IMG/VR virus record: IMGVR_UViG_2617270943_000005
Span: 1 to 18,763 of that record
Reading direction: 5' to 3' (one strand)
Length of the DNA: 18,763 bases
Source of the DNA: a virus
Lineage: Duplodnaviria; Heunggongvirae; Uroviricota; Caudoviricetes
The notes under the pieces are model-generated. The model was not told the origin of the DNA and made no database searches. It worked only from the letters and a program-made list of their open reading frames with translations. The position numbers were made by a program, and so were the translations under genes. The first letter of the stretch is position 1; every line of letters starts with the position of its first letter. Positions 698-14,921 of this stretch are shown here, piece after piece.

Positions 698-1060
698 GGG
701 GCTGATTCTGGATTCGACGGGATTTGCGAAACCCAAGGTGCATGCCGAGGGGCGGTTGGCCTCGTAAAAAGCCGCAAAAAATAGTCGCAAACGACGAAAA
801 CTACGCTTTAGCAGCTTAATAACCTGCTTAGAGCCCTCTCTCCCTAGCCTCCGCTCTTAGGACGGGGATCAAGAGAGGTCAAACCCAAAAGAGATCGCGT
901 GGAAGCCCTGCCTGGGGTTGAAGCGTTAAAACTTAATCAGGCTAGTTTGTTAGTGGCGTGTCCGTCCGCAGCTGGCAAGCGAATGTAAAGACTGACTAAG
1001 CATGTAGTACCGAGGATGTAGGAATTTCGGACGCGGGTTCAACTCCCGCCAGCTCCACCA
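698..1060 (+). ncRNA. ssrA: tmRNA (SsrA), 363 nt
   Basis: 5' end GGGGCTGATTCTGGATTCGACGGG; tag-peptide reading frame GCA AAC GAC GAA AAC TAC GCT TTA GCA GCT TAA (ANDENYALAA) at 787..819; tRNA-like 3' end GGTTCAACTCCCGCCAGCTCCACCA ending at 1060. Confidence 0.96.
1016..1053 (+). repeat. Left copy of 38-bp direct repeat (att core inside ssrA 3' end)
   Basis: ATGTAGGAATTTCGGACGCGGGTTCAACTCCCGCCAGC at 1016..1053 is identical to 14884..14921; the flanks diverge on both sides (CTCCACCA here versus GATTGGACG at the right copy). Confidence 0.85.
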
Positions 1061-1183: not shown

Positions 1184-1828
1184 ATGGAAGAACTTCACTT
1201 TGTTTACATCAATGCAAATGGTCGTACCTACTGGTTTGTGCAATACGGCATGACCACGCAGCCGTATCAGTTCACGAAAGGCAGCATCTTTCATCTGATG
1301 GAACCGGATATTAATCAGGAGATCTACGGGCTGCCCGGCTATCTTTCTGCCATCCCATCCGCTTTGCTCAACGAGTCCGCCACGCTGTTCCGCCGGAAGT
1401 ATTACATTAACGGTAGTCATGCAGGCTTCATCATGTACATGACCGATGCCGCGCAGAACCAGGAGGATGTGAACAACCTCCGCAATGCCATGAAAAGCGC
1501 CAAAGGACCAGGTAACTTCCGCAACCTGTTTATGTACTCGCCTAACGGTAAAAAGGACGGGCTTCAGATTATCCCGTTGTCAGAGGTGGCGGCGAAGGAT
1601 GAGTTTTTGAACATCAAAAACGTGAGCCGGGACGACATGATGGCGGCGCACCGCGTACCGCCGCAAATGATGGGGATTATGCCTAGCAATGTCGGGGGGT
1701 TTGGGGATGTGGAGAAGGCTAGTAAGGTATTCGTAAGAAACGAATTGATGCCCCTGCAGAAACGATTGCAGGAACTAAATAACTGGTTGGACGAAGAAGT
1801 GCTCAATTTTTCAACCTATGAGCTTTAG
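1184..1828 (+). pseudogene. 3' fragment of a phage portal gene (P2 Q-like), N-terminal part missing
   Basis: 214-aa translation (MEELHFVYINANGRTYWFVQYG...GIMPSNVGGFGDVEKASKVF...) resembles the C-terminal portion of PBSX/P2-family portal proteins. The frame opens only 7 codons upstream (in-frame TGA at 1160..1162), about 100 bp from the ssrA junction. It converges on gene A across the cos-like motif, as Q does in P2. Confidence 0.55.
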
Positions 1829-1836
1829 TTTTAAAA

Positions 1837-1856
1837 CGAAGACCATTAGGTCTTCG
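1837..1856. terminator. Bidirectional hairpin terminator between the convergent portal fragment and RT
   Basis: CGAAGACC (1837..1844), loop ATTA, GGTCTTCG (1849..1856): perfect 8-bp stem flanked by AAAA upstream and CTTTATTT downstream, so there is a U-run after the stem on both strands. The RT stop codon (1846..1848) lies in the loop. Confidence 0.6.
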
Positions 1857-2808
1857 CTTTATTTAAAGGGTTCTTTCCATATTTTTTTTCTAATTTGCTA
1901 ATATAAGTTATTAATCTTCTATGGCTTTTTGAATCCACACTTAAAATAAATGACAACCATCCCCTAACGTGTTCTATCTCAGAAGACTTACCGCAAAATA
2001 TATGATGTATCTTTGCTCTAATTTCTTTATATTTTTCTCTACCTATCCCAACTTTCTCTTGTGAAATAACTAAACCTGTAACTTTCCTCTGACTACGAGG
2101 CCCACTAATACAAGTTTTTTTTGAGTTAATAACCAATCCTTCACTTGGGATTATAGAAAATAAAAAATCACGTGCTTTAACAACCTTTTTCATAGACTGT
2201 GCAGATAAGGTGAGATCATCGGCATATCTCGTATATATCAAGCCCCGACTACCTGCATAGCCCTGAATACGATAATCAAGTTTAGAACATATTAGATTAG
2301 CTAATTTAGGTGATGATGGAGCACCTTGTGGTAGCAGATTTTTATAACAACATATTTTTGTCAAAACTGAAGATATTAGTCGATTATAACCAAGAGAATG
2401 GAACACTCCAAAAACTTTGTTAGCAGTTAAACTTGGGAAAAAATCCTCCAAATCAATATTCAGTATAAAGTTTGCCCCAATATGCGGGGTAGCATTATTC
2501 AAAATAGATTGGTGCTTTTCAAATCCAATAGAAAAAGGAGATGACGACAGTTTATCTAAAATGTTACGTAGAACCCATCCTTGTAAGGCTTTAAGTTCTC
2601 GAGAAGGTTGGTAAATGGTTCTCATTCTCTTCTCTGGGCCTTTCTTTTCTACAGTGTAGATCCTATAGCGAAAATCAGCTGTATAGATTAACAACCGAAG
2701 TGTTTCAACAGATATGCGAGTCGCCTTAGACATGTCATGCAAATTGTTCATGACAGGTAGGCCGAGATTTCTCAATCTAAAAGTGTTCAAATATTCAGCG
2801 GATTTCAT
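1846..2808 (-). CDS. ret: Retron reverse transcriptase (320 aa); recognised from memory as the retron Ec86 / Retron-Eco1 RT
   Basis: RT motifs in the translation: LPQGAPSSP, YADD (RYADDLTLS) and the retron-typical VTG (QRKVTGLVIS). ATG at 2808..2806 lies 7 nt downstream of the msr-msd 3' inverted repeat. Length and N-terminus MKSAEYLNTFRLRNLGLPVM match my recollection of the Ec86 RT. Confidence 0.93.
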   Translation of the reverse strand: MKSAEYLNTFRLRNLGLPVMNNLHDMSKATRISVETLRLLIYTADFRYRIYTVEKKGPEKRMRTIYQPSRELKALQGWVLRNILDKLSSSPFSIGFEKHQSILNNATPHIGANFILNIDLEDFFPSLTANKVFGVFHSLGYNRLISSVLTKICCYKNLLPQGAPSSPKLANLICSKLDYRIQGYAGSRGLIYTRYADDLTLSAQSMKKVVKARDFLFSIIPSEGLVINSKKTCISGPRSQRKVTGLVISQEKVGIGREKYKEIRAKIHHIFCGKSSEIEHVRGWLSFILSVDSKSHRRLITYISKLEKKYGKNPLNKAKT

Positions 2809-2814
2809 GAAAGT

Positions 2815-2984
2815 TGCGCACCCTTACGTCAGAAAAAACGGGTTTCCTGGTTGGCTCGGAGAGCATCAGGCGATGCTCTCCGTTCCAACAAGGAAAACAG
2901 ACAGTAACTCAGATTCAATGCAGGATGCCGAAACAACATCCAGAGGTTGACCTTAATGATAAACCTCTCGCTAAGGGTGCGCAT
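2815..2984 (-). ncRNA. msr-msd: Retron msr-msd non-coding RNA (template/primer for msDNA), Ec86-type
   Basis: Minus strand reads ATGCGCACCCTTAGCGAGAGGTTTATCATTAAGGTCAACCTCTGGATGTTGTTTCGGCATCCTGCATTGAATCTGAGTTACTGTCTGTTTTCCTTGTTGGAACGGAGAGCATCGCCTGATGCTCTCCGAGCCAACCAGGAAACCCGTTTTTTCTGACGTAAGGGTGCGCA. Perfect 12-bp a1/a2 inverted repeats at 2972..2983 and 2815..2826; long msd hairpin with an 11-bp tip stem at 2857..2882. Matches the Ec86 ncRNA as I recall it from retron-editing constructs. Confidence 0.9.
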
Positions 2985-3894
2985 ACGGAATCTTATCATA
3001 GTTAAATGTTGATTTTCTACGGTTTTCAAAATTCATAATCTCAAGCCGCAATCGGTCAAGTGTCTTTCTATCAAAGACGCTCCTAACATAGCTAGCCCCC
3101 AAAGCAGTGACCTGATAACCATCAGTCATTTGAAGTATTTTTCGTTCATTTATTAGACGAGAAACAACGGATCTAACAATAATTTTAGATAAAACATCAT
3201 CTTGCTTTATCGCTTTAAAAGCTAGTTCACACAGTGTGCGGTAGTTGACACTATCCAGTAAATAGATACAAGGCAATAGAAACCGCTCTGCGTATAATAT
3301 ATTTCCAATATCTTTTGATACTTTATTTTCTTTCCTAACCTGCTTAATAGATGCCATTAATTTTTTATATAATCGTAATTTTCTGGCAACATCAATAGAT
3401 GAATCACACATTTCTTTTAGTTCATTTGAACTACAACGCAAAACAGATTTTGAATTAAACTTACGCAACAAGCGAACAGGACCATAGTTAATAAAGCTAC
3501 GTTTTGATTTAAATTTTGCATCTTGAATGCAAATCAACTTTCTCCTTAAGTTTTCATTATTAGAGAACGCACCAAGCTCTGTGAAAGACCCCGGACTTTC
3601 AGGAAATAAAATTATTACATCGACAGCTTCAGCCAGAATATTTTCTAAACTTAAAAGGCTATGCTGCCCTTGACCAGCCAAAAGATCATCAAATAGATCT
3701 TCTGGATAAAATATATCAACATCACTGAACTTTGCTAAAAATTGTGATAATTGATGACGCCAAGATTGATGATTAGCAACGTCACCACCACATAGAAAAA
3801 TGGTTATTTTAATATTAGCTCCTCGATAGAAGCCTTTCTTTGTGAGATGTCCTATAAGCTGTTGTTGCTGCTCATCGGTAAATTTTTTATTCAT
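2971..3894 (-). CDS. Retron effector, nucleoside 2-deoxyribosyltransferase (NDT)-like protein with C-terminal extension (about 307 aa)
   Basis: Same strand as, and immediately upstream of, msr-msd and ret. NDT-like features: ANIKITIFLCGGD and VDVIILFPESPGSFTELGAF (candidate catalytic Glu in a DxGxxFExG-like context). Start chosen at ATG 3894..3892 because of the SD GGGGAGA 5 nt upstream; the six-frame ORF extends to 4026 but that N-terminal extension crosses a GC-rich non-coding-looking patch. Stop TAG at 2973..2971 lies inside the msr a1 repeat. Confidence 0.82.
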   Translation of the reverse strand: MNKKFTDEQQQQLIGHLTKKGFYRGANIKITIFLCGGDVANHQSWRHQLSQFLAKFSDVDIFYPEDLFDDLLAGQGQHSLLSLENILAEAVDVIILFPESPGSFTELGAFSNNENLRRKLICIQDAKFKSKRSFINYGPVRLLRKFNSKSVLRCSSNELKEMCDSSIDVARKLRLYKKLMASIKQVRKENKVSKDIGNILYAERFLLPCIYLLDSVNYRTLCELAFKAIKQDDVLSKIIVRSVVSRLINERKILQMTDGYQVTALGASYVRSVFDRKTLDRLRLEIMNFENRRKSTFNYDKIPYAHP

Positions 3895-3966
3895 AATCTC
3901 CCCGCTTTTTTCTACTTTATACATCAAGTTATGAATAGATCCAATCTCCATACCCCATGGCGCGCG

Positions 3967-3985
3967 CTCGTATCCCCGCCACGCC
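3967..3985 (-). other. cos-like motif (possible remnant of P2/186 cohesive-end site)
   Basis: Minus strand 3985..3973 reads GGCGTGGCGGGGA, matching the first 13 nt of the 19-nt P2/186 cohesive end as I recall it (P2 GGCGAGGCGGGGAAAGCAC); it then diverges. It sits in a short GC-rich patch between gene A and the portal fragment, where cos lies in P2. Confidence 0.35.
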
Positions 3986-4237
3986 TGCCCGCTTTGTATA
4001 GCGGTTTTCATGCACTCGCATGGCATAAGGGAAACCTTGCCAGAACTGGCGACCCTCAGCGAAAACGATCTTCAAACGATCATGCGGATTCATGCAGCAT
4101 AGACAGGCACTACTGAGCAATAGCGCTTGAGTTCAGTCAGATATGAGTCCTCAATGTAATACTAATACATCTTAACCGTTCATCATTATTCACATCGGGC
4201 TATGTAATTACAGAAAAACTTTTCACAATCAATTTTA

Positions 4238-4266
4238 TACTGGATTATTTCAGTTTATTGTATAAT
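4238..4266 (+). promoter_or_regulatory. Candidate sigma70 promoter for the 303-aa hotspot gene
   Basis: TATAAT at 4261..4266 immediately preceded by TG (4259..4260), in an AT-rich leader about 40 nt upstream of the start codon at 4306; the -35 region is weak. Confidence 0.4.
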
Positions 4267-4305
4267 TCATGACGCATGCAAATTGACATTAATTCAGGAG
4301 ACAAA

Positions 4306-5217
4306 ATGACATTAATTGTAGCTGGTTTCGAAAAAGATGGAACAATTGTTTTTTGCGGGGACTCACTAATAACAACAAAAGCAAATGGAAGCACTGTAAA
4401 ATTGACATCGTCCTTCAGAAAAATAATACCACTAGAAATTATTGTGCGAGTACCGGAAATCGATCCAAGTGGAAAAATCATAAATTACATTGAAAGCCTT
4501 TGCCAACATCGCTGCATGATTGCATTTGCAGGAAGCACGCTAGTTTCTCAACATATTATAAATTCTATACAAGGTCATCTGAAACAAATAAAATACACAT
4601 ATGATTCTGGCACATATGACTATTCAGAAGGATGCATAAAGGGTGCTGGCTATAAGTTAATAATGGGTTGTGAAGATAACAAAAGCGTTGAGGAAACCTA
4701 TTGGAACGAAGATATGTTTGTTGAGCCAGTAAAGAATGCGAACGAACTTATTAATAAAAATTTTCTACGCAACGTCTTTAGCCACTGCATACAGAAAACC
4801 ATGAATGAATTTTACATTAATATTAATGAGGAATTTAATCCAGAGTGGTTTGCAAGCGATTTCATTGTAGCTCTGTCTTGCTATGAGACTAAAAAAAACC
4901 ATCTTTTTACCTTTAAAATGGAATTTAATGAGTCAGGGGTCAATCTTATAGAAAAAGAAATTAATATCAATGAACTGGCAATAATTGGCATTTCAAGATA
5001 TAGCGAAGAAATAATTCAAGCATATCAAACTCAAAAAGCGACCCTCAGTACATCTGAAATTCTCAGCCAAGAGATTACTAAAGCAATCATAGACAATGAA
5101 AGCATTGATCTTAGAGAAATAGGAGATCCTGTCGTATTAAAAAAATTCAATCAACATCGTGAATTACGTGATGAGCAAAAACACTGGAGGTGCAATACTC
5201 CTCGAGAAAACCAATAA
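4306..5217 (+). CDS. Hypothetical protein (303 aa), AT-rich cargo gene in the old/tin-equivalent hotspot; possible Ntn-hydrolase (HslV/proteasome-like) N-terminal domain
   Basis: Long ORF with SD AGGAG (4296..4300) 5 nt before ATG 4306. N-terminus MTLIVAGFEKDGTIVFCGDSLITTKANGSTVKL... has Thr at position 2 and a pattern reminiscent of HslV ([23 protein letters not shown]...K). Codon usage is distinct from the neighbouring phage genes. Family assignment is tentative. Confidence 0.75.
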   Translation: MTLIVAGFEKDGTIVFCGDSLITTKANGSTVKLTSSFRKIIPLEIIVRVPEIDPSGKIINYIESLCQHRCMIAFAGSTLVSQHIINSIQGHLKQIKYTYDSGTYDYSEGCIKGAGYKLIMGCEDNKSVEETYWNEDMFVEPVKNANELINKNFLRNVFSHCIQKTMNEFYININEEFNPEWFASDFIVALSCYETKKNHLFTFKMEFNESGVNLIEKEININELAIIGISRYSEEIIQAYQTQKATLSTSEILSQEITKAIIDNESIDLREIGDPVVLKKFNQHRELRDEQKHWRCNTPRENQ

Positions 5218-5244
5218 ACGCCTCGCTATACTCGTTGTTCAACC

Positions 5245-5279
5245 TTGCTGACGCGAGAATAAAATTCTCACGTCAGCAA
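5245..5279. repeat. 35-bp inverted repeat (16-bp arms, 1 mismatch, 3-nt spacer) between convergent genes
   Basis: TTGCTGACGCGAGAAT aaa ATTCTCACGTCAGCAA at 5245..5279, between the stop of the 303-aa gene (5217) and the stop of the 62-aa ORF (5291). No clear U-tract follows on either strand. Confidence 0.5.
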
Positions 5280-5290
5280 CGTTCCTGCTG

Positions 5291-5479
5291 CTAACCGAGA
5301 AGATCCATTGAGCGGTTGTATTCGTGGCTTCTGATTTTTGCCATGAGTTCATCAGTCAATTCAGAAACCCACTGCAGAGCCAGCCCCTTCTCTTCATCAC
5401 TACACTCACTAGCCGCTACAAGCTTAAGAAAAAAATCAATGCGCTGGAGCTTCAAAGACTCCAAAAAATAGTCCTGCAT
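5291..5479 (-). CDS. Small protein (62 aa), putative SOS-inducible Tum-like antirepressor
   Basis: ATG 5479..5477 preceded by a strong SD AGGAGG; a LexA box lies 41 bp upstream; it sits downstream of gene A, as tum does in coliphage 186. The function is inferred from context; I do not recognise the protein sequence itself. Confidence 0.5.
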   Translation of the reverse strand: MQDYFLESLKLQRIDFFLKLVAASECSDEEKGLALQWVSELTDELMAKIRSHEYNRSMDLLG

Positions 5480-5519
5480 CTTTCCTCCTATGACACCAAA
5501 GCAATACTGTATATATAAC

Positions 5520-5539
5520 TACTGTTTATATTTACAGTA
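5520..5539. promoter_or_regulatory. LexA box (SOS operator)
   Basis: TACTGTTTATATTTACAGTA matches the consensus TACTGT(AT)4ACAGTA with perfect CTGT-N8-ACAG; an additional CTGT half-site lies at 5507..5510. Confidence 0.6.
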
Positions 5540-5631
5540 TATAATAATCTTACTGATGTAAAACGTTTTTTTACGTTCATCAGCCTGATATGCCTGGTAT
5601 TATTAAGAGCACGAATTGTTAACCCGCGTAA

Positions 5632-8073
5632 TTAATACAGGTTCCGCCACTTATCATCTTCCTGCAAACGCTGGTTCCGATAGAAGATTCGCAGGCCTGC
5701 TCCTGACGGAATGCTGCCGCCGCGAAGGAGTAAATCGACCTCTTTCTCGCTGCCATCAAATCCTCTGGACTTCAGTTCATACACGAGCTGCAGTCGCTGA
5801 TGGTCTGTAATTCGCTGTTTGTAGTCTTTACGACGTTTCGGTTTAACCAGGCGTAACCTTGCTACCAGTTCCCGGCGCTCTTTTTTGCTCAGACTGTGCA
5901 GGTATTCGTGCAACTCTTTGTCATCCATGCGGGTGATATCCGTTCTGGTATCCCCATCAGCTGATTTGTTTTTCTCCTGTTGGTTCAAATTTTCAGCAAG
6001 GGGACAGTTATTGCCACGAGTCCAAGGGGCGCAAGCGCCCTGGTCGGCTGCCGCCTCCTGAACGTCAACGGCCTTACGAACCATTTTCCACTTCACTGCA
6101 TGAGTGCAGATCTTGCCCTCTGCAATGGGTGACCAGATGCCATAAATACGAATACCGTGATCGCCATAGGCGGTTGGCTCTTCGTTGATTTCATAAGCGG
6201 TTCTGATGAGGTGATATTTGCGGGGAACCAGTACGCCGCCCTGCTTCATGATGTAGGTGGCAAAACAACCAGCATCAGCAGCAGCCAGGATGGCATCAAG
6301 GCGCGGGTTATCCAGTACCGGCGCACCTGCTTTTTTGTCACCCTGTTGCCTTGCCGCCTGACCAGCCAGCAATCGCAGTTCACGGTAAGCCTGACGCCCC
6401 GGAATGCCAAAGAAGCGGAATTGCTGAACACGATGCAGAGACGCCCAGGCATTAACGTATTCAGCGTTATCACACAGGGATTTCCCCGTTTCCTTACTGA
6501 TCTCGCCAGCCAGACCACGTCCGTCAATATTCTTACTGATATATTTCGCAATGTAGCTTGTCGGCGTTCCTTTGCGCGGGTTTATCAGCTCAGACTTAAA
6601 GCGTGGCCCCGTGTTATTGCCCAGCTCCTCGCGGTCTTCACGGATGGCAAACTTACGCAACAATGCAGTAATGGCGCGGCGGTCTTTTTTGCGCATGAAA
6701 CACAACAGGTGCCAGTGAACTGTGCCGTCATGATGCGGCTCAGCCACCCGCACGCCATACCAGCGCAACCCGGCTTTGTGCATAGCCTTACGAAATGCAG
6801 CAAACATGCCGACCAGATAATCACTGCTTTGTCTTACTGTCGCGTTGGTCCAGGTCGGGTTTGGCCTGCCGTTATTTAGCGTGGAATGGAAACGTGACGG
6901 ACAGGTGATGGTGTAGAAAACGGCGCAGTCACCGCGCATTTCCGCGATAAGCTCCAGACCTTTAACACAGGCCATCATCTCATTGCGGCGATGCGCAGGG
7001 TTGCTGCTGCTGGCGTTTACCACATCCTCCATGTCCAGCGTGTCGCCGTCTTCGTTCACCAGTTCATGAGAACGAAAAAACTCCAGCGACTTACGGCGCT
7101 GCTCACGTTTATGCATCACGGCTTCATAGCTGACATAGGGAGATGCTTTTTTGCTGACCAGGCAAACAGCACGCAACTGCTCTTCCCGCCATTCGCAACG
7201 CATCTTCCATAATTTCCGGTACCACCAGTCGGCGCACAACATACGCGCCAGCGAACCCGGAATGAGTTCATAGGGCACGGGTTTACGGCGGTTTCTTTTC
7301 CGGCGGAGTTGCTCAAACGCAGGCGGGATGACATCCAGACGCAGGGTTTCCGCTGCCATCTTTTCCCATGTCTTGCGGATTTCTTCTGGCTTAACGTCAT
7401 CGGTGACATACAAATCGCCACAAGCTGCATCAAGGCACATGCTCATATGCGCAGCGACAAGGGTAGACAAACGTTTCACCTGATCCTGACTCATTTCAGG
7501 CAGGATCAGCAGGCCGTCCAGCCCTTCATGGCTTGCCATAAAGCGAAAAGAAGTGGATAGCTGACTGTCGCGTACATGCTCCAGTCGTTCCAGACATGGC
7601 TTAATCGTCTCACGCAAATAGCGGGAATAAGCCTTTGGCCTGCCCAGGCTGCTGAAGTATTCAATACGTTGCATCAGCGGCTTGCTGATATGGGAAGGCT
7701 GGGCATTGACGTCCGCCAGAATGACCATATCTGGATTAAAACGCTGCTGCTCATGCGCCAGCTTTGCCCGGCTAATGAGCTTATCCTGCTCCATTTCGCG
7801 TTGGACAGGATCACGGGATTCATTAAAGAAATAACGCTCCCAGACCTGATCACTCAGTGCCTCGCGGCGCAGTTGTTCCTGCTCGTTATCGGCAGCGTAC
7901 AGAGTGATCAGGTTTGAAAGCGCAGAAATCGGCGCAACTTCCGCCGGGTCCAGATAAGGGTTAATGGCTTTCTTAGGTAAATTCCACGAATAACCCCCGG
8001 CAGAATTCTCAATGCTACCGGAAGTTACACTGACAAATGGATCGGCAAGACGGCCTGTGCTGATCTCTGTCAC
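5632..8073 (-). CDS. A: Phage replication initiation endonuclease (P2 gpA family), 813 aa
   Basis: Large ORF whose translation I recognise as the P2/186 replication protein A family. GTG start at 8073..8071 overlaps the TGA stop of the upstream gene (GTGA); SD AGGAG 7 nt upstream. Confidence 0.88.
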
Positions 8074-9080
8074 TCACAGACTCCTGCATATACACTGCTG
8101 CACACCGCTTTATCATTCATGCCTGCCAGCAGGTCAAACTGCATACCGCCCCGAGTCGTTAAGGCCCAGTCCCGATAAGTTTCAATGCCATAAGCATCAA
8201 CAGTTATGACTTCGATCCGTTTTTCAGCACGGCGCGGATCATGCGTGGATGGAAAGAACGTTGAATTGCCATGTCTTGAACATTCCGCAACCAGTCTTTC
8301 CCACTCAGCCACTCGGCGGATTTCTTCTGGCCAGCGTTGGAAAATCTCAGCAAGTTCTGACTTGCGAGCATGAATACATGGCATACAACCGACACGACTG
8401 CATCCCTGCATATAAAGGGGGTTAGGCTTAATGCCATGACGTTTGGCAATAGCAAACACATCCTCATGCAGCCAATTAAGGATCGGACGATAAACATGCA
8501 GGCCCAGAGTATTGTCTGCATCGTCCTCCCACTCAGGCAACAATGCACGTTCCGGTGATTCCTGCCCCCGGACTCCTTGCCAGCTGATTACCTCATCGTA
8601 TTTATCCAGAGCCGGATCGATTACCTGTGTACGTATTGGTTCATGTTTCAGTTCAAAAGTGCAGAAACGAGCTTTTGTTGAAGGGAAGCGACCTTTCCAC
8701 ATGCACAAATCAAGAAACGGAACGCCGGTTGGTTTAAGGATTTCCAGTGCCCGGTAAATACGTTCCTCAGCCTCATCTGTCGACATACCACATTCCTCAA
8801 CGAGAGAAATGGGCCACTTTTCCGCAATGAATTTACGTTTCCCTTCTATCTGGCGTGTGAAATCCGCTTTGACGCGAATAATCTTGCCCAGCTTTGATTC
8901 CAGATAATCCAGATATTCTATTGTCTGTGGATGTTCATGACCCGTATCGGCAAATACAGAAATATGCGGAACATCGTTTTCAATGGCTCTTAGCCATTGA
9001 GCGAGACTATCTTTGCCACCAGAAGTAGTGATGATGTTAATGGTGCTTGAGGCAAAGCAACGCGGATCGATAGCATTCAT
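8070..9080 (-). CDS. Phosphoadenosine-phosphosulfate (PAPS) reductase-like family protein, 336 aa
   Basis: N-terminal ITTSGGKDS is the PP-loop (SGGxDS) typical of PAPS reductase / ATP-pyrophosphatase-fold proteins; ATG 9080 overlaps the dam stop (ATGA); SD GAGG present. Confidence 0.8.
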
Positions 9081-9925
9081 GAGCGTACCTCAACGGTACG
9101 GTCAGAGCCGCTGGCAAAATCGACACCAAACCACCCAGCTGATTTGGTGGCAATGATTTCTGCTGCAGATTTACTCTCGCCAGCTGACACGCCGATGCTG
9201 CGTTTTGCCTTGATGTAGTAGTGAGTGAAATTGCGATACAGCGAACGAATCAGGGATGTGTCACTGTTAGAAACAATGACCGGATGACCTTCAGATGATC
9301 GATGTTCAAGAACGGATGCCAGGTGATACTGGTCATCTTCAGTGAAGCCATCAGTGTGATAGCCGGAAAACGTACCGTCATAAGGCGGATCGCAATACAC
9401 CACATCCCCCGCCTTCAACATCGCCAGCGTTTCATCAAAGCTGGCGCAGATAAACGTTGCCCGCTGGGCTTTCTCTGCAAATGCGCGAATTTCTTTTTCA
9501 GGGAAATACGGATTTTTATAATTACCGTAGGGAATGTTGAAATACCCGCTCTTGTTATAGCGACATAACCCACGATAACCATGACGATTGAGATACAGAA
9601 AATATACCGCTTTCATGAAATCAGTAATTTCAGTGGAGTAATTAAACTCCTGCCTTATGTTGTAATAAGCCACCTCCCTGTTTGCTTCCTCAAATAAAGC
9701 TCTGGCACGAGATATAAACGCCTCACAATCAGCAGCAACCTTTTTATAGAGGTTGATTAAATCAGGATTAATATCCGCAACAAGATAGCTGGGGTAATCC
9801 GTCTCCATCATCACTGCACAGGAACCCGCGAAAGGTTCAACCAGTCGCGGGCCAGCAGGAAGATGCTTTTTCAGTTCGGACATTATGGCGGTTTTATTTC
9901 CCGCCCATTTCAGGATGGTGCTCAT
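9077..9925 (-). CDS. dam: DNA N6-adenine methyltransferase (Dam family), 282 aa
   Basis: Motifs [16 protein letters not shown] and DPPY (VYCDPPYDG). Start chosen at ATG 9925 (SD GGAGG; overlaps the stop of the upstream gene, ATGA) rather than the longer six-frame ORF starting at 9985. Confidence 0.88.
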
Positions 9926-10149
9926 ACAGCACCTCCGTTGTAATGTTTGCCTTTCAGCTCTGCGATTTCCTGACAGGTAATGCAAAGCTGCACACCCGGA
10001 ATGGCACGACGGCGTGCTGGCGGAATTGGCGCTTCACACTCAACGCAAAGCACGCGGGACACGCCCGGCGTTTTGGCACGGGCAGCACGGATATGACGTT
10101 GGCGTTCTTCTTCAACTCGCTGCTGTACGAGATCCATTGCATCAGCCAT
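9922..10149 (-). CDS. TraR/DksA-family C4 zinc-finger protein, 75 aa
   Basis: CVEC-x17-CITC four-cysteine finger in a 75-aa protein, typical of small phage TraR/DksA-like proteins; start overlaps the upstream stop (TGATG). Confidence 0.82.
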   Translation of the reverse strand: MADAMDLVQQRVEEERQRHIRAARAKTPGVSRVLCVECEAPIPPARRRAIPGVQLCITCQEIAELKGKHYNGGAV

Positions 10150-10382
10150 CAGTGGATCTCCTGCGCTTCGTTCTGGATTGCTTCAGCAGTCACACGCAGC
10201 AGTTCTGCCGCTTCGACGTGGTTTAACTGGCGGGATGTGATATGACACGCCAGGCGATCAAGGCGAGCTGCCATTGCTTCAGCCCTTGCCCGGCGTTCTT
10301 CCAGACGAGCCTCTGTCAGTAAAATATTAAGCCCTGCGTCATCCGGTCCGGTTTTAGTCGTGAAGGTTTCAATATTACGCAT
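10149..10382 (-). CDS. Hypothetical phage early protein, 77 aa
   Basis: ORF in the translationally coupled early operon; start at ATG 10382 with SD AGGAG 8 nt upstream (the six-frame call begins at an upstream TTG). Confidence 0.55.
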   Translation of the reverse strand: MRNIETFTTKTGPDDAGLNILLTEARLEERRARAEAMAARLDRLACHITSRQLNHVEAAELLRVTAEAIQNEAQEIH

Positions 10383-10449
10383 AATCAATTCTCCTGTATT
10401 TAGATAAAGGGATGCCCGGCGGGTTTACGCCATTAATTTCATTAGTTGG

Positions 10450-10791
10450 TTAATTCGGCATGGTTAGCCGTCTGGGAAATAAGCTCACCACTGCACGAAA
10501 ATGATTCATTGCTTTAATCAGCTCCCGCTTTTCGTCAGTGGTCAGCTCATTAATGCTGATGCTATGACGTTCAGCTGGAATTTTTGCCATAAAGAATATG
10601 GCAGCCAGTGCTCGTTTATTTTGTTCGTTATTGATATCCCGTGGATCACGCATATCTTTAATAAACCGCTCAAGCTCTGACTCAATATTCAGGCCAAATA
10701 CTTTCGCCCTTAACTCCGCAATGTGATTAAGTCCATTCAGGCGTTCACCGGGGCTTAATGGAACAGTCGCCGCAGCGCCTTCAATAGCCAT
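10450..10791 (-). CDS. Hypothetical phage early protein, 113 aa
   Basis: ORF with ATG 10791 and upstream GGGGGAA; same orientation as the early operon; no family recognised. Confidence 0.5.
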   Translation of the reverse strand: MAIEGAAATVPLSPGERLNGLNHIAELRAKVFGLNIESELERFIKDMRDPRDINNEQNKRALAAIFFMAKIPAERHSISINELTTDEKRELIKAMNHFRAVVSLFPRRLTMPN

Positions 10792-10955
10792 TTGTTCCCC
10801 CGTTTTTTCGTAGATAGTTCTGCCAGCAATTCATCTTGTGAACGGCACGGATGCCAGCGTTTACCATCCTCACCCATGATCCAGCCGTGACCGTAGTGCA
10901 TTGCCGGACTTTGTTTTACCAGGAGCGATGCAAATGATGGTTCTTTCATCAGCAT
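10755..10955 (-). CDS. Hypothetical small protein, 66 aa, immediately after cII (position of 186 fil)
   Basis: ATG 10955 with SD GAGGTG 5 nt upstream; overlaps the next ORF by 37 nt; the assignment rests on position only. Confidence 0.4.
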   Translation of the reverse strand: MLMKEPSFASLLVKQSPAMHYGHGWIMGEDGKRWHPCRSQDELLAELSTKKRGNKWLLKALRRLFH

Positions 10956-10962
10956 AAGCACC

Positions 10963-11472
10963 TCACAGCAAACCGAATGAAGCACCGAGGCCAGTCACGG
11001 TATCAACCGCACTCGCCATCGCAGGATTAGCCTGTAAACGGGCCTGCAATGAAACAGCAGCCAGCGCCATCAGTCGTGTAACAGAGTTAATGCTGCTGAT
11101 AGCATCACGACGACCGGCACAGGTTTTTACCTCGCCAGATACCGCACCTGCAGCAACACGCCCGATCTCTGCGGTTGCACTCATGACGTAATGTGGCAGT
11201 TTCTCTTTTGCCACCTCATTAATCGGTACACATGGTAGGCAGTGAATCTGTGCCAGAAAACCATCTATCAGCGTTGAATCTTCAGTCAGATCGGTAAGCA
11301 GCCAGATTTCTGGCGCATTGAGCTGATGCGGTTGATCTGGGTTGAGTTTGTTTCGCAGTGTCTGGACATTCATTCCTGCACGTTCTGCCAGCTTCGCCAT
11401 ATTGTGACGAAGTGCAAAAGCTCTACAGGCTTCATCAAAATGCGGGTGTTTGGAAATCTTATAATCAAACAT
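10963..11472 (-). CDS. cII: Phage CII-like transcriptional activator (186 CII family), 169 aa
   Basis: 169-aa protein MFDYKISKHPHFDEACRAFALRHNMAKLAERAGMNVQTLRNKLNP... matches the length and N-terminal HTH region of coliphage 186 CII as I recall it; second gene of the rightward-type operon after the apl/cox-like gene. Confidence 0.8.
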   Translation of the reverse strand: MFDYKISKHPHFDEACRAFALRHNMAKLAERAGMNVQTLRNKLNPDQPHQLNAPEIWLLTDLTEDSTLIDGFLAQIHCLPCVPINEVAKEKLPHYVMSATAEIGRVAAGAVSGEVKTCAGRRDAISSINSVTRLMALAAVSLQARLQANPAMASAVDTVTGLGASFGLL

Positions 11473-11504
11473 GCTACCCCCTTAGAAAGTTCTCATAATT
11501 GAAC

Positions 11505-11747
11505 TTACTTACCAACAATGACGCGGAAGTTGGAATGACCGAGGGATTCACGGACCTGATCGGTTTTGTACATTAAATAACGCAGGCTTACGCGGCCTTT
11601 GTTTTTTTCCTTCTTGACCATGTATTTAGCAAGCTGACCATGGTGAATTTTTTGATACACAGAGCCGCGGGAGATACCTTCCCATTCAGCGAACTCAGCA
11701 GGCGTTGCCATCTCTTTTGGTACACGAATTGAAATATCAGTACTCAT
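11505..11747 (-). CDS. Cox/Apl-like small DNA-binding protein (excisionase/repressor), 80 aa
   Basis: First gene of the operon divergent from cI-int; small basic protein; position identical to apl in 186 and cox in P2. Confidence 0.6.
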   Translation of the reverse strand: MSTDISIRVPKEMATPAEFAEWEGISRGSVYQKIHHGQLAKYMVKKEKNKGRVSLRYLMYKTDQVRESLGHSNFRVIVGK

Positions 11748-11834
11748 AGTGCAGTATCTCTTACTTTGTGTGCGTGTTAGTTCGTTTTAGCCCGTCTCTT
11801 AAACTCTCACATCAAGAGACACGAAGACATTACG

Positions 11835-11868: not shown

Positions 11869-12501
11869 ATGTTAAACATCAGAATGGGTTCCGATACGGG
11901 AGGTAAAGCAGCTATTGAGAGGCTGCTTGCGGCTTATGGATTTACAACTAAGCAGGCATTAAGCGAGCACCTGAATGTCTCAAAAAGCACTATGGCGAAC
12001 AGAGTGTTACGTGACAGTTTTCCTGCTGACTGGATAATTCAGTGCGCACTAGAAACCGGTGTTTCGTTGCTTTGGTTAGCTACAGGACAGGGAAGCATGA
12101 AAGGAGGAAGTGAGCCTGAAAAAAGATCTCACAATGAGAACAAACAAGCAATTAAACCGTTATCCAAACTCATAACTCCATCTATTCCTAAAGGAACCTT
12201 GGAGAATGGACAACTCAGTATTGATGAAGAGATTTTCTTAGACCACAGCATATTACCTGCAGATTATGAAGAATCGATGTTCTTAGAAACCCCTACTGAT
12301 TGTTATCTCATCGATAAATCAGTTAAACAAGTCAGCAATGGATTCTGGCTTATCAATATTGATGGAATGATTATTATTGCAAAAATCATGCGGATTCCCG
12401 GCAATAAGATTGTAGTAAATCAAGATGAAGCGTCTTTCGAGTGCTCTGCTGATGATGTGGAAGTTATTGGGCGTGCAGTCAAAGTAATAAAGAGTATCTA
12501 A
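11869..12501 (+). CDS. cI: Phage CI-like repressor (186 CI family), 210 aa
   Basis: N-terminal HTH region (TTKQALSEHLNVSKSTMANRVLRD) and two-domain architecture like 186 CI; directly upstream of, and coupled to, int; divergent from the apl/cII operon. Confidence 0.8.
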   Translation: MLNIRMGSDTGGKAAIERLLAAYGFTTKQALSEHLNVSKSTMANRVLRDSFPADWIIQCALETGVSLLWLATGQGSMKGGSEPEKRSHNENKQAIKPLSKLITPSIPKGTLENGQLSIDEEIFLDHSILPADYEESMFLETPTDCYLIDKSVKQVSNGFWLINIDGMIIIAKIMRIPGNKIVVNQDEASFECSADDVEVIGRAVKVIKSI

Positions 12502-12503
12502 AC

Positions 12504-13520
12504 ATGACTGTCAGAAAACAGCCAAACGGTAAATGGTTGTGCGAGTGCTATCCCAATGGACGCAATGGCAAGCGCGTGCGTAAGCAATTTGCTACGAAAG
12601 GCGAAGCCATTGCTTTTGAAAGCTTCACAATGGCAGAAGTGAACAAAAAACCATGGCTGGGGGAAAAGGAAGATCGGCGACACCTATCAGAATTAATTGA
12701 GCAGTGGTATTCCCTATATGGTCAAACACTCGCAGACCCCAAGCGCCTCATGGCGAAACTTAGAATTATCTGTAATGGTCTGGGCGATCCCATCGCCTCA
12801 GAACTGACAGCCGGTGACTTTACGAAATACCGCGAAGCACGGTTAAAAGGCGAAGTGCGAAATGAAGATGGCACGCTTATGTCGCCCGTTAAGCCCCGCA
12901 CGGTAAACCTTGAACAGCGCAATCTATCATCGGTGTTCGGTACATTAAAAAAACTAGGACACTGGTCAGCACCAAACCCGCTGGCAGGACTTCCAACCTT
13001 CAAAATTGCTGAAGGTGAGCTGGCTTTTCTTTCCGCGGACGAAATCAAACGCCTATTGGTTGCCTGCGCAGATTCCCAGAGCCCCAGCCTTCTTATGATT
13101 GCAAAAATATGCCTGGCCACCGGCGCACGCTGGAGTGAAGCCGAAAACCTGCAGGGCCATCAGTTATCCAAATACCGCATCACTTATACCAAGACGAAGG
13201 GCAAGAAAAACCGTACCGTGCCGATATCTCAGGATCTGTACAACGAACTTCCCAAAAACAGAGGGAAGTTATTCACGCCATGCAGAAAAGCCTTTGAGCG
13301 AGCAGTAAAGCGGGCCGGTATCGTTCTACCTGAGGGACAATGTACTCATGTGTTACGCCATACATTCGCCAGCCACTTCATGATGAATGGAGGAAATATA
13401 CTGGTTCTCAAAGAAATTCTGGGGCATGCCGATATAAAGATGACAATGGCTTACGCTCATTTTTCTCCTGACCATTTGGAAGATGCCGTCCTGAAAAATC
13501 CTTTAACTAATTTAAGGTAA
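12504..13520 (+). CDS. int: Tyrosine integrase (P2/186 Int family), 338 aa
   Basis: Catalytic signature ATGARWSE ... HVLRHTFAS ... LGHADIKMTMAYAH (R, H-x-x-R, Y); size typical of P2 Int. Confidence 0.92.
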   Translation: MTVRKQPNGKWLCECYPNGRNGKRVRKQFATKGEAIAFESFTMAEVNKKPWLGEKEDRRHLSELIEQWYSLYGQTLADPKRLMAKLRIICNGLGDPIASELTAGDFTKYREARLKGEVRNEDGTLMSPVKPRTVNLEQRNLSSVFGTLKKLGHWSAPNPLAGLPTFKIAEGELAFLSADEIKRLLVACADSQSPSLLMIAKICLATGARWSEAENLQGHQLSKYRITYTKTKGKKNRTVPISQDLYNELPKNRGKLFTPCRKAFERAVKRAGIVLPEGQCTHVLRHTFASHFMMNGGNILVLKEILGHADIKMTMAYAHFSPDHLEDAVLKNPLTNLR

Positions 13521-13527
13521 TAGTTCA

Positions 13528-14766
13528 ATGGTTATTGAAACTAAAAGCAAAAAAATATCAAAAGTTGCGTTAAAAAGGCTTTTTAACACTATTTTAAAAA
13601 AATCCTCAATTCGTCCTCCTATAGAAGTTGGCAAAAATAATGACCTAATTACTGATTTCTCTGCAAAATGTGAAAAATTTAAAGATTGCCTGAAAGAATA
13701 CATAGAAAACAATAATGATGATATCTTAGCAAGAAGAGTTAAGAGCAGATTAAAAGTTATTGAGTCCGTGCAAGAAGGCATAATAAATTGTTTGGAATGC
13801 TTTCTTTCCGGAGATATCAAGTCAGCGTATGATTCTTTTGAGGAAATGCTTGAGCCAGATTTTGTATCAAGGCATATTAAAAATATTTGCATACCTTTAT
13901 CTGAAAAGTGTGGTAATAACAAGCGTCTATTTAGAGTCAGGAAATCCGAACGCCCTTTATCAACAAGAAAAGATATCTTTCATATTCCTTTCAATCAGCG
14001 CCATCTGGTTAGTGCACAACGCTACTCAGTTGCAGGTCTTCCGTGCCTTTATTTAGGAACTTCATTGTATATCTGCTGGCGAGAAATGGACAAACCCGAT
14101 TTTGATAAGTTATATATATCATCATTTACCACTAGCTCAGAGAATAATGAATCGCTACTATTAGATTTTAGTGCTGATTTCCTTTATAAAACGAAGCTAT
14201 TCTTTACATCTAAAAAAGAACATTCTTCAGCAAAAGAGCTTTCTTCGGTCACAATGTTATCATACCTCGCATTATGGCCTTTAATAATCGCATGCAATTA
14301 TTTAAAAAAACATAGCAATGCATCTTTCATTCAGGAATATATAATACCAAACTTACTTATGCAGTGGATAAGCAGGGATATTAACGATTACAACATTGTT
14401 GGAATTGCTTATCGTTCAACAAAACTACCTGCAAATGCTGATAGTGAGAGAGGGGTCAATGTCGTTCTTCCTCCAAAAATTCGTTACGAAGACATGAAGG
14501 TTAACGAATTCTGCCCAGAACTCTCCGGCTTATTTCACTGTACCCCACCAGTATCATGGCAGGTTCTAAAAACTCTTGAATATGTACCATTGCGTCAATC
14601 CTTCTCAGATAGAGAGATATTGAGTGACGAGCTCAGGAACAAAAAGCTCTGGGATATAATGGGCAATCTTGATGATGAAATTTTGAGCATTTATAAATTA
14701 TCTGACTTTTACAAGCTTGAAGTTTGTATGGATGAAATCCAAGTCCATAACGACATAAACACATAA
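13528..14766 (+). CDS. RES-domain-like protein (412 aa), AT-rich cargo between int and the right att repeat
   Basis: Segment RLFRVRKSERP...QRYSVAGLPCLYLGTSLYICWRE fits the RES-domain pattern (Arg ... G-x-P-x-LY-x-x-S ... E). Strong compositional shift to AT-rich immediately after the int stop. Confidence 0.65.
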   Translation: MVIETKSKKISKVALKRLFNTILKKSSIRPPIEVGKNNDLITDFSAKCEKFKDCLKEYIENNNDDILARRVKSRLKVIESVQEGIINCLECFLSGDIKSAYDSFEEMLEPDFVSRHIKNICIPLSEKCGNNKRLFRVRKSERPLSTRKDIFHIPFNQRHLVSAQRYSVAGLPCLYLGTSLYICWREMDKPDFDKLYISSFTTSSENNESLLLDFSADFLYKTKLFFTSKKEHSSAKELSSVTMLSYLALWPLIIACNYLKKHSNASFIQEYIIPNLLMQWISRDINDYNIVGIAYRSTKLPANADSERGVNVVLPPKIRYEDMKVNEFCPELSGLFHCTPPVSWQVLKTLEYVPLRQSFSDREILSDELRNKKLWDIMGNLDDEILSIYKLSDFYKLEVCMDEIQVHNDINT

Positions 14767-14883: not shown

Positions 14884-14921
14884 ATGTAGGAATTTCGGAC
14901 GCGGGTTCAACTCCCGCCAGC
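14884..14921 (+). repeat. Right copy of 38-bp direct repeat (att site; duplicated ssrA 3' segment without the CCA end)
   Basis: Identical to 1016..1053; followed by CGATTGGACG instead of the tmRNA 3' end. Confidence 0.85.

What the first reader, a model, noticed from the sequence alone, without database searches (positions are those of the whole stretch)
1846..3894. Complete retron (effector, msr-msd, RT) of the Ec86 / Retron-Eco1 type inside the prophage
Three collinear minus-strand elements: an NDT-like effector gene, a 170-nt ncRNA with perfect 12-bp a1/a2 inverted repeats and a long msd hairpin, and a 320-aa RT with YADD and VTG motifs. I recognise the ncRNA and RT as retron Ec86, a described anti-phage system with an NDT-like effector, so it is not novel. 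It does identify this island as a defence locus and makes the neighbouring uncharacterised cargo genes more interesting.
Basis: partly seen in the sequence, partly recalled or inferred. Interest (0 to 1): 0.65.

Follow-up and report, generated by a model that had tools for sequence, protein, structure and literature searches.

The report
Known retron Ec86 in prophage remnant
This is a near-exact copy of retron Ec86 (Retron-Eco1), a well-studied E. coli anti-phage system, sitting in its usual slot of a P2/186-like prophage, so it is correctly identified and not new.

Summary
The observation and the interpretation both hold. On the minus strand of 1846-3894 lie a 307-aa NDT-like effector, a ~169-nt msr-msd RNA gene and a 320-aa reverse transcriptase (RT). 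The RT is 100% identical to the solved Ec86 RT. The RNA gene is 100% identical to E. coli BL21(DE3). The effector is 306/307 identical to the solved Ec86 effector. The cassette fills the slot between the portal-gene terminator and the cos site of a 186/P2-like prophage, the position already published for Ec86 and Ec67. Here the prophage is a 13.9-kb remnant integrated in ssrA; its portal gene is truncated and all other morphogenesis genes are deleted. One detail is worth recording: the single effector change, K185Q, hits a lysine reported to contact the msDNA stem-loop, and K185A abolished defence in that study. Position 185 varies across the family, and this exact allele is on 113 public contigs, so it is probably tolerated, but this is untested. 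The neighbouring gene (4306-5217) is an unannotated protein with a proteasome-subunit-like predicted fold. It occupies a separate cargo slot and is not linked to the retron. Verdict: already known, low interest.

The parts
2971..3894 (-). Retron Ec86/Eco1 effector (NDT-like N-glycosidase plus DNA-binding lobe), 307 aa, allele K185Q
   Evidence: 306/307 identical to PDB 7v9x_C. PADLOC NDT_II-A 3e-94. NCBIfam NF038232, 176 bits against a cut-off of 100. D69 and E106 are present. Q replaces K at residue 185.
2815..2983 (-). msr-msd non-coding RNA gene, a1 to a2 inclusive
   Evidence: 0 differences from BL21(DE3). Fold z = -9.2. Inverted repeats.
2972..2983 (-). a1 inverted repeat (TGCGCACCCTTA), inside the 3' end of the effector ORF. 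The G at 2971, immediately 3' of a1, is the expected priming (branch) guanosine and is also the last base of the effector stop codon.
   Evidence: The priming-G rule comes from PMC6868368; its exact position in Ec86 is from my own knowledge.
2815..2826 (-). a2 inverted repeat (TAAGGGTGCGCA), ending 6 nt before the RT start codon
   Evidence: 12 nt, 100% complementary to a1.
2828..2913 (-). msd template. Its reverse complement gives the 85/86-nt msDNA GTCAGAAAAAACGGG...AACTCAG(A).
   Evidence: Derived. The start and stop points are from my own knowledge of Ec86. The 85-nt length is from PMC12673091.
2843..2896 (-). msd stem-loop (the DNA stem-loop of the msDNA)
   Evidence: 25-nt arms, 88% complementary, 4-nt loop.
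2846..2850 (-). CCAGG in the RNA, which is CCTGG in the msDNA stem: the Dcm site reported as the trigger-sensing site
   Evidence: Motif located. Its role is from 10.1101/2023.08.16.553469.
1846..2808 (-). Retron Ec86 reverse transcriptase, 320 aa
   Evidence: 320/320 identical to PDB 7v9u_A. Two synonymous nucleotide differences from BL21. Pfam RVT_1. NAxxH, YADD and VTG motifs.
1837..1856 (.). G+C-rich hairpin between the convergent portal fragment and RT genes, overlapping the RT stop codon. It corresponds to terminator tW of phage 186.
   Evidence: Terminator-like site. Phage 186 annotates tW just after the portal gene.
3967..3985 (-). cos-like site GGCGTGGCGGGGATACGAG, 73 nt upstream of the effector start; right-hand boundary of the cassette slot
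   Evidence: Aligns to the annotated 19-nt cos of phage 186 (15/19 identical). The surrounding ~150 bp is conserved in P2-like phages. Homology to prophages with other cargo resumes at 3956-3960.
1016..1053 (+). Left att repeat (3' end of ssrA) of the host prophage remnant
   Evidence: 38-bp exact direct repeat with 14884-14921. tmRNA at 698-1060.
14884..14921 (+). Right att repeat of the prophage remnant

Best explanation
This is a natural allele of Retron-Eco1 (Ec86), a type II-A3 retron.

**Shown here by sequence.** All three parts are intact. The RT protein and the ncRNA sequence are identical to the reference, and the effector differs at one residue.

**Inferred from published work on the identical parts.**
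- The operon (effector, then msr-msd, then RT) is transcribed from the minus strand.
- The RT binds the msr stem-loops. It primes from the 2'-OH of the guanosine next to a1 and copies the msd into an 85/86-nt msDNA that stays joined to the msr RNA.
- RT-msDNA binds the NDT-like effector and holds it inactive in a filament.
- An infecting phage's C5-cytosine methylase (Dcm) methylates the CCTGG site in the msDNA stem-loop.
- This releases effector activity: N-glycosidase attack on NAD(P)+ and/or adenine nucleosides. Phage replication stops by abortive infection.

**Setting.** The cassette is cargo in the portal-terminator-to-cos slot of a 186/P2-like prophage. Here that prophage is a defective remnant integrated at ssrA.
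For: - **Identity:** RT 320/320 to PDB 7v9u_A. Effector 306/307 to 7v9x_C. The ncRNA has 0 differences, and the RT and effector genes 2 nucleotide differences each, against BL21(DE3). The RT sequence equals the entry named RT86_ECOLX.
- **Family models:** PADLOC RT_II-A and NDT_II-A; NCBIfam models pass their cut-offs.
- **RNA anatomy:**
- **Catalytic residues:** E106 is kept and is invariant in 125/125 relatives; D69 is also kept.
- **Trigger site:** the Dcm motif is present in the msd stem.
- **Gene order:** the same as in BL21 and as cloned for functional work, 'effector-ncRNA-rrt'.
- **Slot:** phage 186 has cos at 1-19 and tW at 164-187, next to the portal gene. The window has the matching terminator at 1837-1856 and a cos-like site at 3967-3985. 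Related prophages carry other cargo between exactly these boundaries, including an Ec67-like 585-aa RT. Published descriptions are Dodd & Egan 1996 (cited in PMC6868368) and the gpA-gpQ hotspot (PMC9122126).
- **Mechanism:** 10.1101/2023.08.16.553469 and PMC12673091.
Against: - **K185Q:** the effector has Q where the reference has K185. That lysine is reported to contact the msDNA stem-loop backbone, and K185A abolished defence. Full activity of this allele is therefore not guaranteed.
- **Upstream region:** beyond cos it is only about 76% identical to BL21 (28 differences in 3996-4111). A consensus promoter scan found nothing above chance (7 sites against 8.9 expected), so expression is assumed, not shown.
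- **Effector chemistry:** the published accounts differ (adenine-nucleoside depletion against NAD(P)+ hydrolysis and ADP-ribosylation).
- **No functional data:** nothing about msDNA production or defence can be tested from sequence.
Confidence: 0.93

Rival explanations
1. The locus is a genuine Ec86 retron that still makes msDNA, but K185Q weakens the effector's grip on the msDNA stem-loop. Defence would then be lost, weakened, or set at a different trigger threshold compared with the BL21 allele.
For: K185 lies in helix alpha9 and contacts the msDNA stem-loop backbone. K185A abrogated anti-phage activity, as did K29A, K149A and K177A. The window has Q185. Relatives at 70-84% identity keep K or R at this position.
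Against: - Glutamine can still donate a hydrogen bond to a phosphate, unlike alanine.
- Position 185 varies across 125 family members (K 51, N 14, S 11, A 11, Q 8).
- The exact K185Q protein is on 113 public contigs, including Salmonella.
- The rest of the cassette shows only synonymous changes in the RT and none in the RNA. That is not the pattern of a decaying locus.
Confidence: 0.15
2. The retron is a silent relic. The host prophage is defective, and the cassette is no longer expressed or selected.
For: The prophage has lost the 5' part of its portal gene and all other morphogenesis genes. No convincing sigma-70 promoter was found upstream.
Against: - All three parts are intact with no frameshift or stop.
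- The 70 nt directly upstream of the effector differ from BL21 at only one substitution and one 2-nt indel. In BL21 the native upstream region drives function, although the extent of the cloned upstream fragment is not stated.
- BL21's own copy also sits in a degraded prophage (pseudogenes) and is active.
Confidence: 0.05
3. The retron and the adjacent gene at 4306-5217 form one composite defence system.
For: They are neighbours inside one hotspot, and both are A+T-rich (34-35% G+C against 46% for the window).
Against: - The two lie on opposite sides of cos and are divergently transcribed.
- The same gene at 4306-5217 occurs with four different partners in the portal-cos slot: the Ec86 retron, an Ec67-like RT, Vpar_1526 plus an 81-aa gene, and a PDDEXK_GAPS4 set.
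- BL21's functional Ec86 has a different, 111-aa hypothetical gene at that position instead.
Confidence: 0.02

Closest known systems
Retron-Eco1 (Ec86) of E. coli B / BL21(DE3), type II-A3
   Same: RT protein identical, ncRNA identical, effector 306/307 identical. Same gene order, and the same slot between the portal terminator and cos of a 186-like prophage.
   Different: - Effector carries K185Q.
- Two synonymous changes in the RT gene.
- Flanks diverge: portal 94.7% identical, beyond cos about 76%.
- The host prophage is integrated at ssrA, not next to rcdA/ybjJ as in BL21.
- Different neighbouring cargo: a 303-aa protein in place of BL21's hypothetical and DinI-like genes.
Retron-Sen2 (St85) family, type II-A
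   Same: NCBIfam assigns both proteins to the 'retron St85 family'. Both have an NDT-like effector held in check by RT-msDNA, and for both a phage DNA methylase is the reported trigger.
   Different: St85 is a different member whose reported trigger is Dam. The Ec86 ncRNA has no GATC and senses Dcm at CCTGG.
Retron-Eco2 (Ec67)
   Same: Occupies the same portal-cos slot in related prophages (PMC6868368). A 585-aa RT sits there in L016.
   Different: Ec67 is an RT-Toprim fusion with no separate effector. It matches the window RT at only 4.5e-34.

Membership tests
Retron-Eco1 (Ec86), type II-A3 retron | Retron-type RT with the NAxxH, YADD and VTG motifs, and sequence identity to RT-Eco1 | tested here: met
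   320/320 identical to PDB 7v9u_A. NATPH 105, YADD 195, VTG 243. PADLOC RT_II-A 7e-128.
Retron-Eco1 (Ec86), type II-A3 retron | msr-msd RNA with a1/a2 inverted repeats, a guanosine next to a1, and an msd hairpin; identical to the Ec86 sequence | tested here: met
   0 differences from BL21(DE3) over 2814-2984. 12-bp perfect a1/a2 and 25-nt hairpin arms. Fold z = -9.2. G at 2971 follows a1.
Retron-Eco1 (Ec86), type II-A3 retron | NDT-like (N-glycosidase) effector with catalytic E106 and with D69 | tested here: met
   306/307 identical to PDB 7v9x_C. E106 and D69 present. E106 invariant in 125/125 relatives.
Retron-Eco1 (Ec86), type II-A3 retron | Effector lysines that contact the msDNA stem-loop (K29, K149, K177, K185), each reported as needed for defence | tested here: inconclusive
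   K29, K149 and K177 are present; residue 185 is Q. K185A abolished defence, but K185Q has not been tested and the position varies in the family.
Retron-Eco1 (Ec86), type II-A3 retron | Gene order effector, then msr-msd, then RT, on one strand | tested here: met
   The same order is seen in BL21 and in the cloned functional unit.
Retron-Eco1 (Ec86), type II-A3 retron | Dcm target CCTGG in the msDNA stem-loop (trigger sensor) | tested here: met
   CCAGG at 2850-2846 on the RNA-sense strand, inside the hairpin. Mutating this site abolished defence.
Retron-Eco1 (Ec86), type II-A3 retron | Production of a branched msDNA of 85/86 nt | not testable with these tools
   Needs a nucleic-acid preparation. 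Predicted from the identical RT and RNA.
Retron-Eco1 (Ec86), type II-A3 retron | Anti-phage activity, triggered by phage Dcm | not testable with these tools
   Needs plaque assays and dcm co-expression.
Cargo of the P2/186-like prophage hotspot between gpA and portal gpQ | Located between the portal gene and the replication gene A, next to cos, with alternative cargo in related prophages | tested here: met
   Portal fragment 1225-1828 and GPA 5632-8073. cos-like site at 3967-3985. Alternative cargo in L010, L011 and L016. Hotspot described in PMC9122126.

The most novel reading that the evidence does not exclude
The retron itself is known. The most novel reading still open has two parts. First, the K185Q allele, at an msDNA-contacting lysine, may change how easily the effector is released, giving a natural variant with a different trigger threshold or phage range. 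Second, the cos site may be flanked by two independently exchangeable cargo slots. The second slot here holds an unannotated proteasome-beta-like protein (4306-5217) that could be a new kind of anti-phage or phage-accessory enzyme.
Probability: 0.12. Interest if true: 0.45.

Novelty: already known. Interest (0 to 1): 0.12.

Why it matters
For the scan, this is a positive control: a textbook defence system, correctly recognised from raw sequence. It adds no new biology. It does mark the region as the cos-proximal cargo hotspot of a P2/186-like prophage. That gives some reason to look at the two unannotated cargo genes in the same remnant (4306-5217 and 13528-14766). The K185Q allele is a ready-made natural variant for testing how msDNA-effector contacts set the trigger of Ec86, which is widely used in retron genome editing.

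Tried and rejected
- **Rfam:** no family matches the ncRNA at gathering thresholds. A permissive scan gave only weak microRNA-precursor hits on the msd hairpin (E 0.12-10). These are chance matches to a hairpin, not evidence against the retron.
- **Pfam:** the local Pfam scan found nothing for the effector. The precomputed tables list PF28093 (STM3845) for it and its relatives, so this is a library-version gap.
- **Promoter scan:** uninformative, 7 sites against 8.9 expected.
- **Resident Dam as a trigger:** I considered whether the prophage's own Dam-family methylase (9077-9985) could trigger the retron, as phage Dam is reported to trigger the related St85 retron. I rejected this for canonical sites because the ncRNA has no GATC and the Ec86 trigger is C5-cytosine methylation at CCTGG.
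- **Retron plus neighbour as one system:** rejected.
- **351-aa reading of the effector ORF:** rejected. The extension runs across the cos-like site, and the solved protein starts at M45 of that ORF.
- **Literature on proteasome-like anti-phage genes:** the search found nothing.
- **** was a mistyped pattern and gave no data.

Full report
**1. What is in the sequence**

The ORF list and the minus-strand read show three collinear elements.
- An ORF ending at 2971 whose in-frame ATG at 3894 gives 307 aa.
- A non-coding stretch from about 2984 to 2814.
- A 320-aa ORF at 2808..1846.

The non-coding stretch has these features.
- A perfect 12-bp inverted repeat (2983-2972 and 2826-2815), 145 nt apart.
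- An internal hairpin with 25-nt arms, 88% complementary, and a 4-nt loop (2843-2896).
- As RNA it folds at -81.1 kcal/mol, against -46.1 +/- 3.8 for dinucleotide shuffles (z = -9.2, none of 200 as stable).

The RT has NATPH (105), YADD (195) and VTG (243). Three small corrections apply.
- The effector stop codon lies inside a1, so the effector gene and msr overlap.
- a1 to a2 spans 169 nt.
- The mechanical 351-aa ORF (4026..2971) is an over-extension.

**2. Identity**

- The RT is 320/320 identical to PDB 7v9u_A, 'RNA-directed DNA polymerase from retron EC86'.
- The effector is 306/307 identical to PDB 7v9x_C, 'Retron Ec86 putative ribosyltransferase/DNA-binding protein'. The solved protein starts at M45 of the 351-aa ORF, which is the ATG at 3894.
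- Against BL21(DE3) (locus L001), the ncRNA has no differences. The RT gene has two synonymous changes. The effector gene has two changes, one of them K185Q.
- PADLOC calls RT_II-A and NDT_II-A. The NCBIfam 'retron St85 family' RT and effector models both pass their curated cut-offs.
- The exact RT sequence carries the source name RT86_ECOLX. The exact K185Q effector is already on 113 public contigs.
- About 48 of 5,426 complete E. coli genomes carry at least 80% of the 2.5-kb query around the retron. Most of those listed are B-strain derivatives.

**3. Setting**

The window starts with smpB (1-483) and the tmRNA gene ssrA (698-1060, 296 bits). A 38-bp exact repeat of the ssrA 3' end recurs at 14884-14921. 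Together the two repeats delimit a 13.9-kb integrated element. Its gene content is that of a 186/P2-like phage.
- Portal fragment (1225-1828)
- Replication protein A (5632-8073)
- PAPS-reductase-like gene (8070-9080)
- Dam-family methylase (9077-9985)
- TraR/DksA, DUF2732, DUF5347, Fil, CII
- CI repressor (11869-12501)
- Integrase (12504-13520)

Window 1225-11768 is collinear, at 98.3% identity, with an intact prophage (L014) that has the full portal, terminase and capsid genes. The window is therefore a deletion derivative: it has lost the 5' part of its portal gene and all other morphogenesis genes.

Phage 186 annotates cos at 1-19 and terminator tW at 164-187, next to its portal gene W. The window has the matching hairpin at 1837-1856. 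It also has a cos-like site, GGCGTGGCGGGGATACGAG, at 3985..3967 (15/19 identical to 186 cos). The retron fills the space between the two.

Prophages with other cargo lose homology to the window at about 1750-1800 and regain it at 3956-3960. [quoted passage not shown] It also matches the gpA-gpQ defence hotspot of P2-like phages (PMC9122126).

Identity to BL21 is mosaic.
- 94.7% in the portal fragment
- About 99.7% from 1829 to 3995
- About 76% beyond cos

That pattern is what cassette exchange by recombination at the slot borders would produce.

**4. How it most likely works**

- The RT makes an msDNA from the msd, primed at the guanosine next to a1 (PMC6868368).
- RT-msDNA binds the effector and assembles filaments in which the effector is inactive (10.1101/2023.08.16.553469).
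- A phage-encoded Dcm methylates CCTGG in the msDNA stem-loop and activates the system. Mutating that site abolishes defence. The site is present here at 2850-2846.
- The activated effector has been described in two ways: as depleting adenine and its nucleosides, and as an N-glycosidase that hydrolyses NAD(P)+ (summary in PMC12673091). I leave that chemistry open.

**5. The one point of doubt**

The only amino-acid difference from the reference effector is K185Q. In the filament structure, K185 (helix alpha9) contacts the msDNA stem-loop backbone, and K185A abolished defence.

In an alignment of 125 family members, position 185 is variable (K 51, N 14, S 11, A 11, Q 8). E106 is invariant and D69 nearly so. 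The allele is widespread, and glutamine can still hydrogen-bond to a phosphate. I therefore rate a functional defect at about 15%. It is easy to test.

**6. Comparison and novelty**

The locus meets every sequence-testable defining feature of Retron-Eco1 (type II-A3); only the K185 contact is inconclusive. msDNA production and defence cannot be tested here. It is already known.

**7. Seen in passing**

*Gene at 4306-5217.* This gene sits on the far side of cos.
- It is a 303-aa protein with no Pfam, NCBIfam or PADLOC hit. It matches only phrog_25719, of unknown function.
- It has just 19 related clusters, all in Enterobacterales.
- An AlphaFold model (pLDDT 85, pTM 0.85) matches only proteasome subunits and HslV in the PDB (E about 4e-5, target TM 0.5-0.68).
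- M1-T2, D19 and K39 are invariant. From my knowledge of proteasome beta subunits, this resembles the Thr1/Asp17/Lys33 pattern.
- It occurs with four different cargoes in the portal-cos slot, so it is independent of the retron.
- It is absent from all 5,426 complete E. coli genomes at megablast level, though it is present on 137 public contigs.

*ORF at 13528-14766.* This 412-aa ORF (phrog_7835, unknown function) lies between the integrase and the right att repeat. Another strain carries an 'anti-phage dCTP deaminase' at that position.

Noticed in passing
window 4306-5217 (+): Unannotated 303-aa protein in the cos-to-gpA cargo slot. It has no Pfam, NCBIfam or PADLOC hit and only 19 related clusters. 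The AlphaFold model (pLDDT 85) matches only 20S proteasome subunits and HslV. M1-T2, D19 and K39 are invariant, like a proteasome-beta active site. It is found with four different cargoes in the neighbouring slot, so it is independent of the retron.
   Followed up: partly
window 13528-14766 (+): 412-aa ORF of unknown function (phrog_7835, no Pfam family, 34.5% G+C) between the integrase and the right att repeat. E. coli strain 5735 has an 'anti-phage dCTP deaminase' in this position, which suggests a second cargo site at the integrase end of the prophage.
   Followed up: partly
window 1016-1053 and 14884-14921; junction 1131-1224: 38-bp exact direct repeats of the ssrA 3' end delimit a 13.9-kb prophage remnant. 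About 140 codons of the portal gene and all other morphogenesis genes are missing compared with an intact relative (L014). The 94 bp at 1131-1224 match neither ssrA flank nor portal in the loci compared.
   Followed up: partly
window 8070-9985 (-): The prophage carries a Dam-family adenine methylase (TIGR00571, 3e-96) and an adjacent PAPS-reductase-like gene. Phage Dam is the reported trigger of the related St85 retron, but the Ec86 ncRNA here has no GATC, so self-triggering at canonical sites is not expected.
   Followed up: partly
window 1829-3995 versus flanks: Sharp mosaic identity to BL21: about 99.7% across the retron and cos, 94.7% in the portal fragment, about 76% beyond cos. This is consistent with the cassette having been swapped between diverged P2/186-like phages at the slot borders.
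   Followed up: yes
L003 1669-2442 (E. coli strain 5735, next to ssrA): Another strain has a different 'reverse transcriptase domain-containing protein' directly after ssrA at the same chromosomal site, plus an IS421 and a more complete but also degraded P2-like prophage.
   Followed up: no
window 5291-5479 (-): 62-aa ORF (phrog_698, unknown function) conserved just upstream of gpA in more than 1,000 E. coli genomes. It marks the inner border of the cos-to-gpA cargo slot.
   Followed up: no
window 15077-18757 (-): Large AIDA/pertactin-type autotransporter, annotated ypjA/ehaD in related genomes. It flanks the prophage and forms the chromosomal side of the ssrA island.
   Followed up: no
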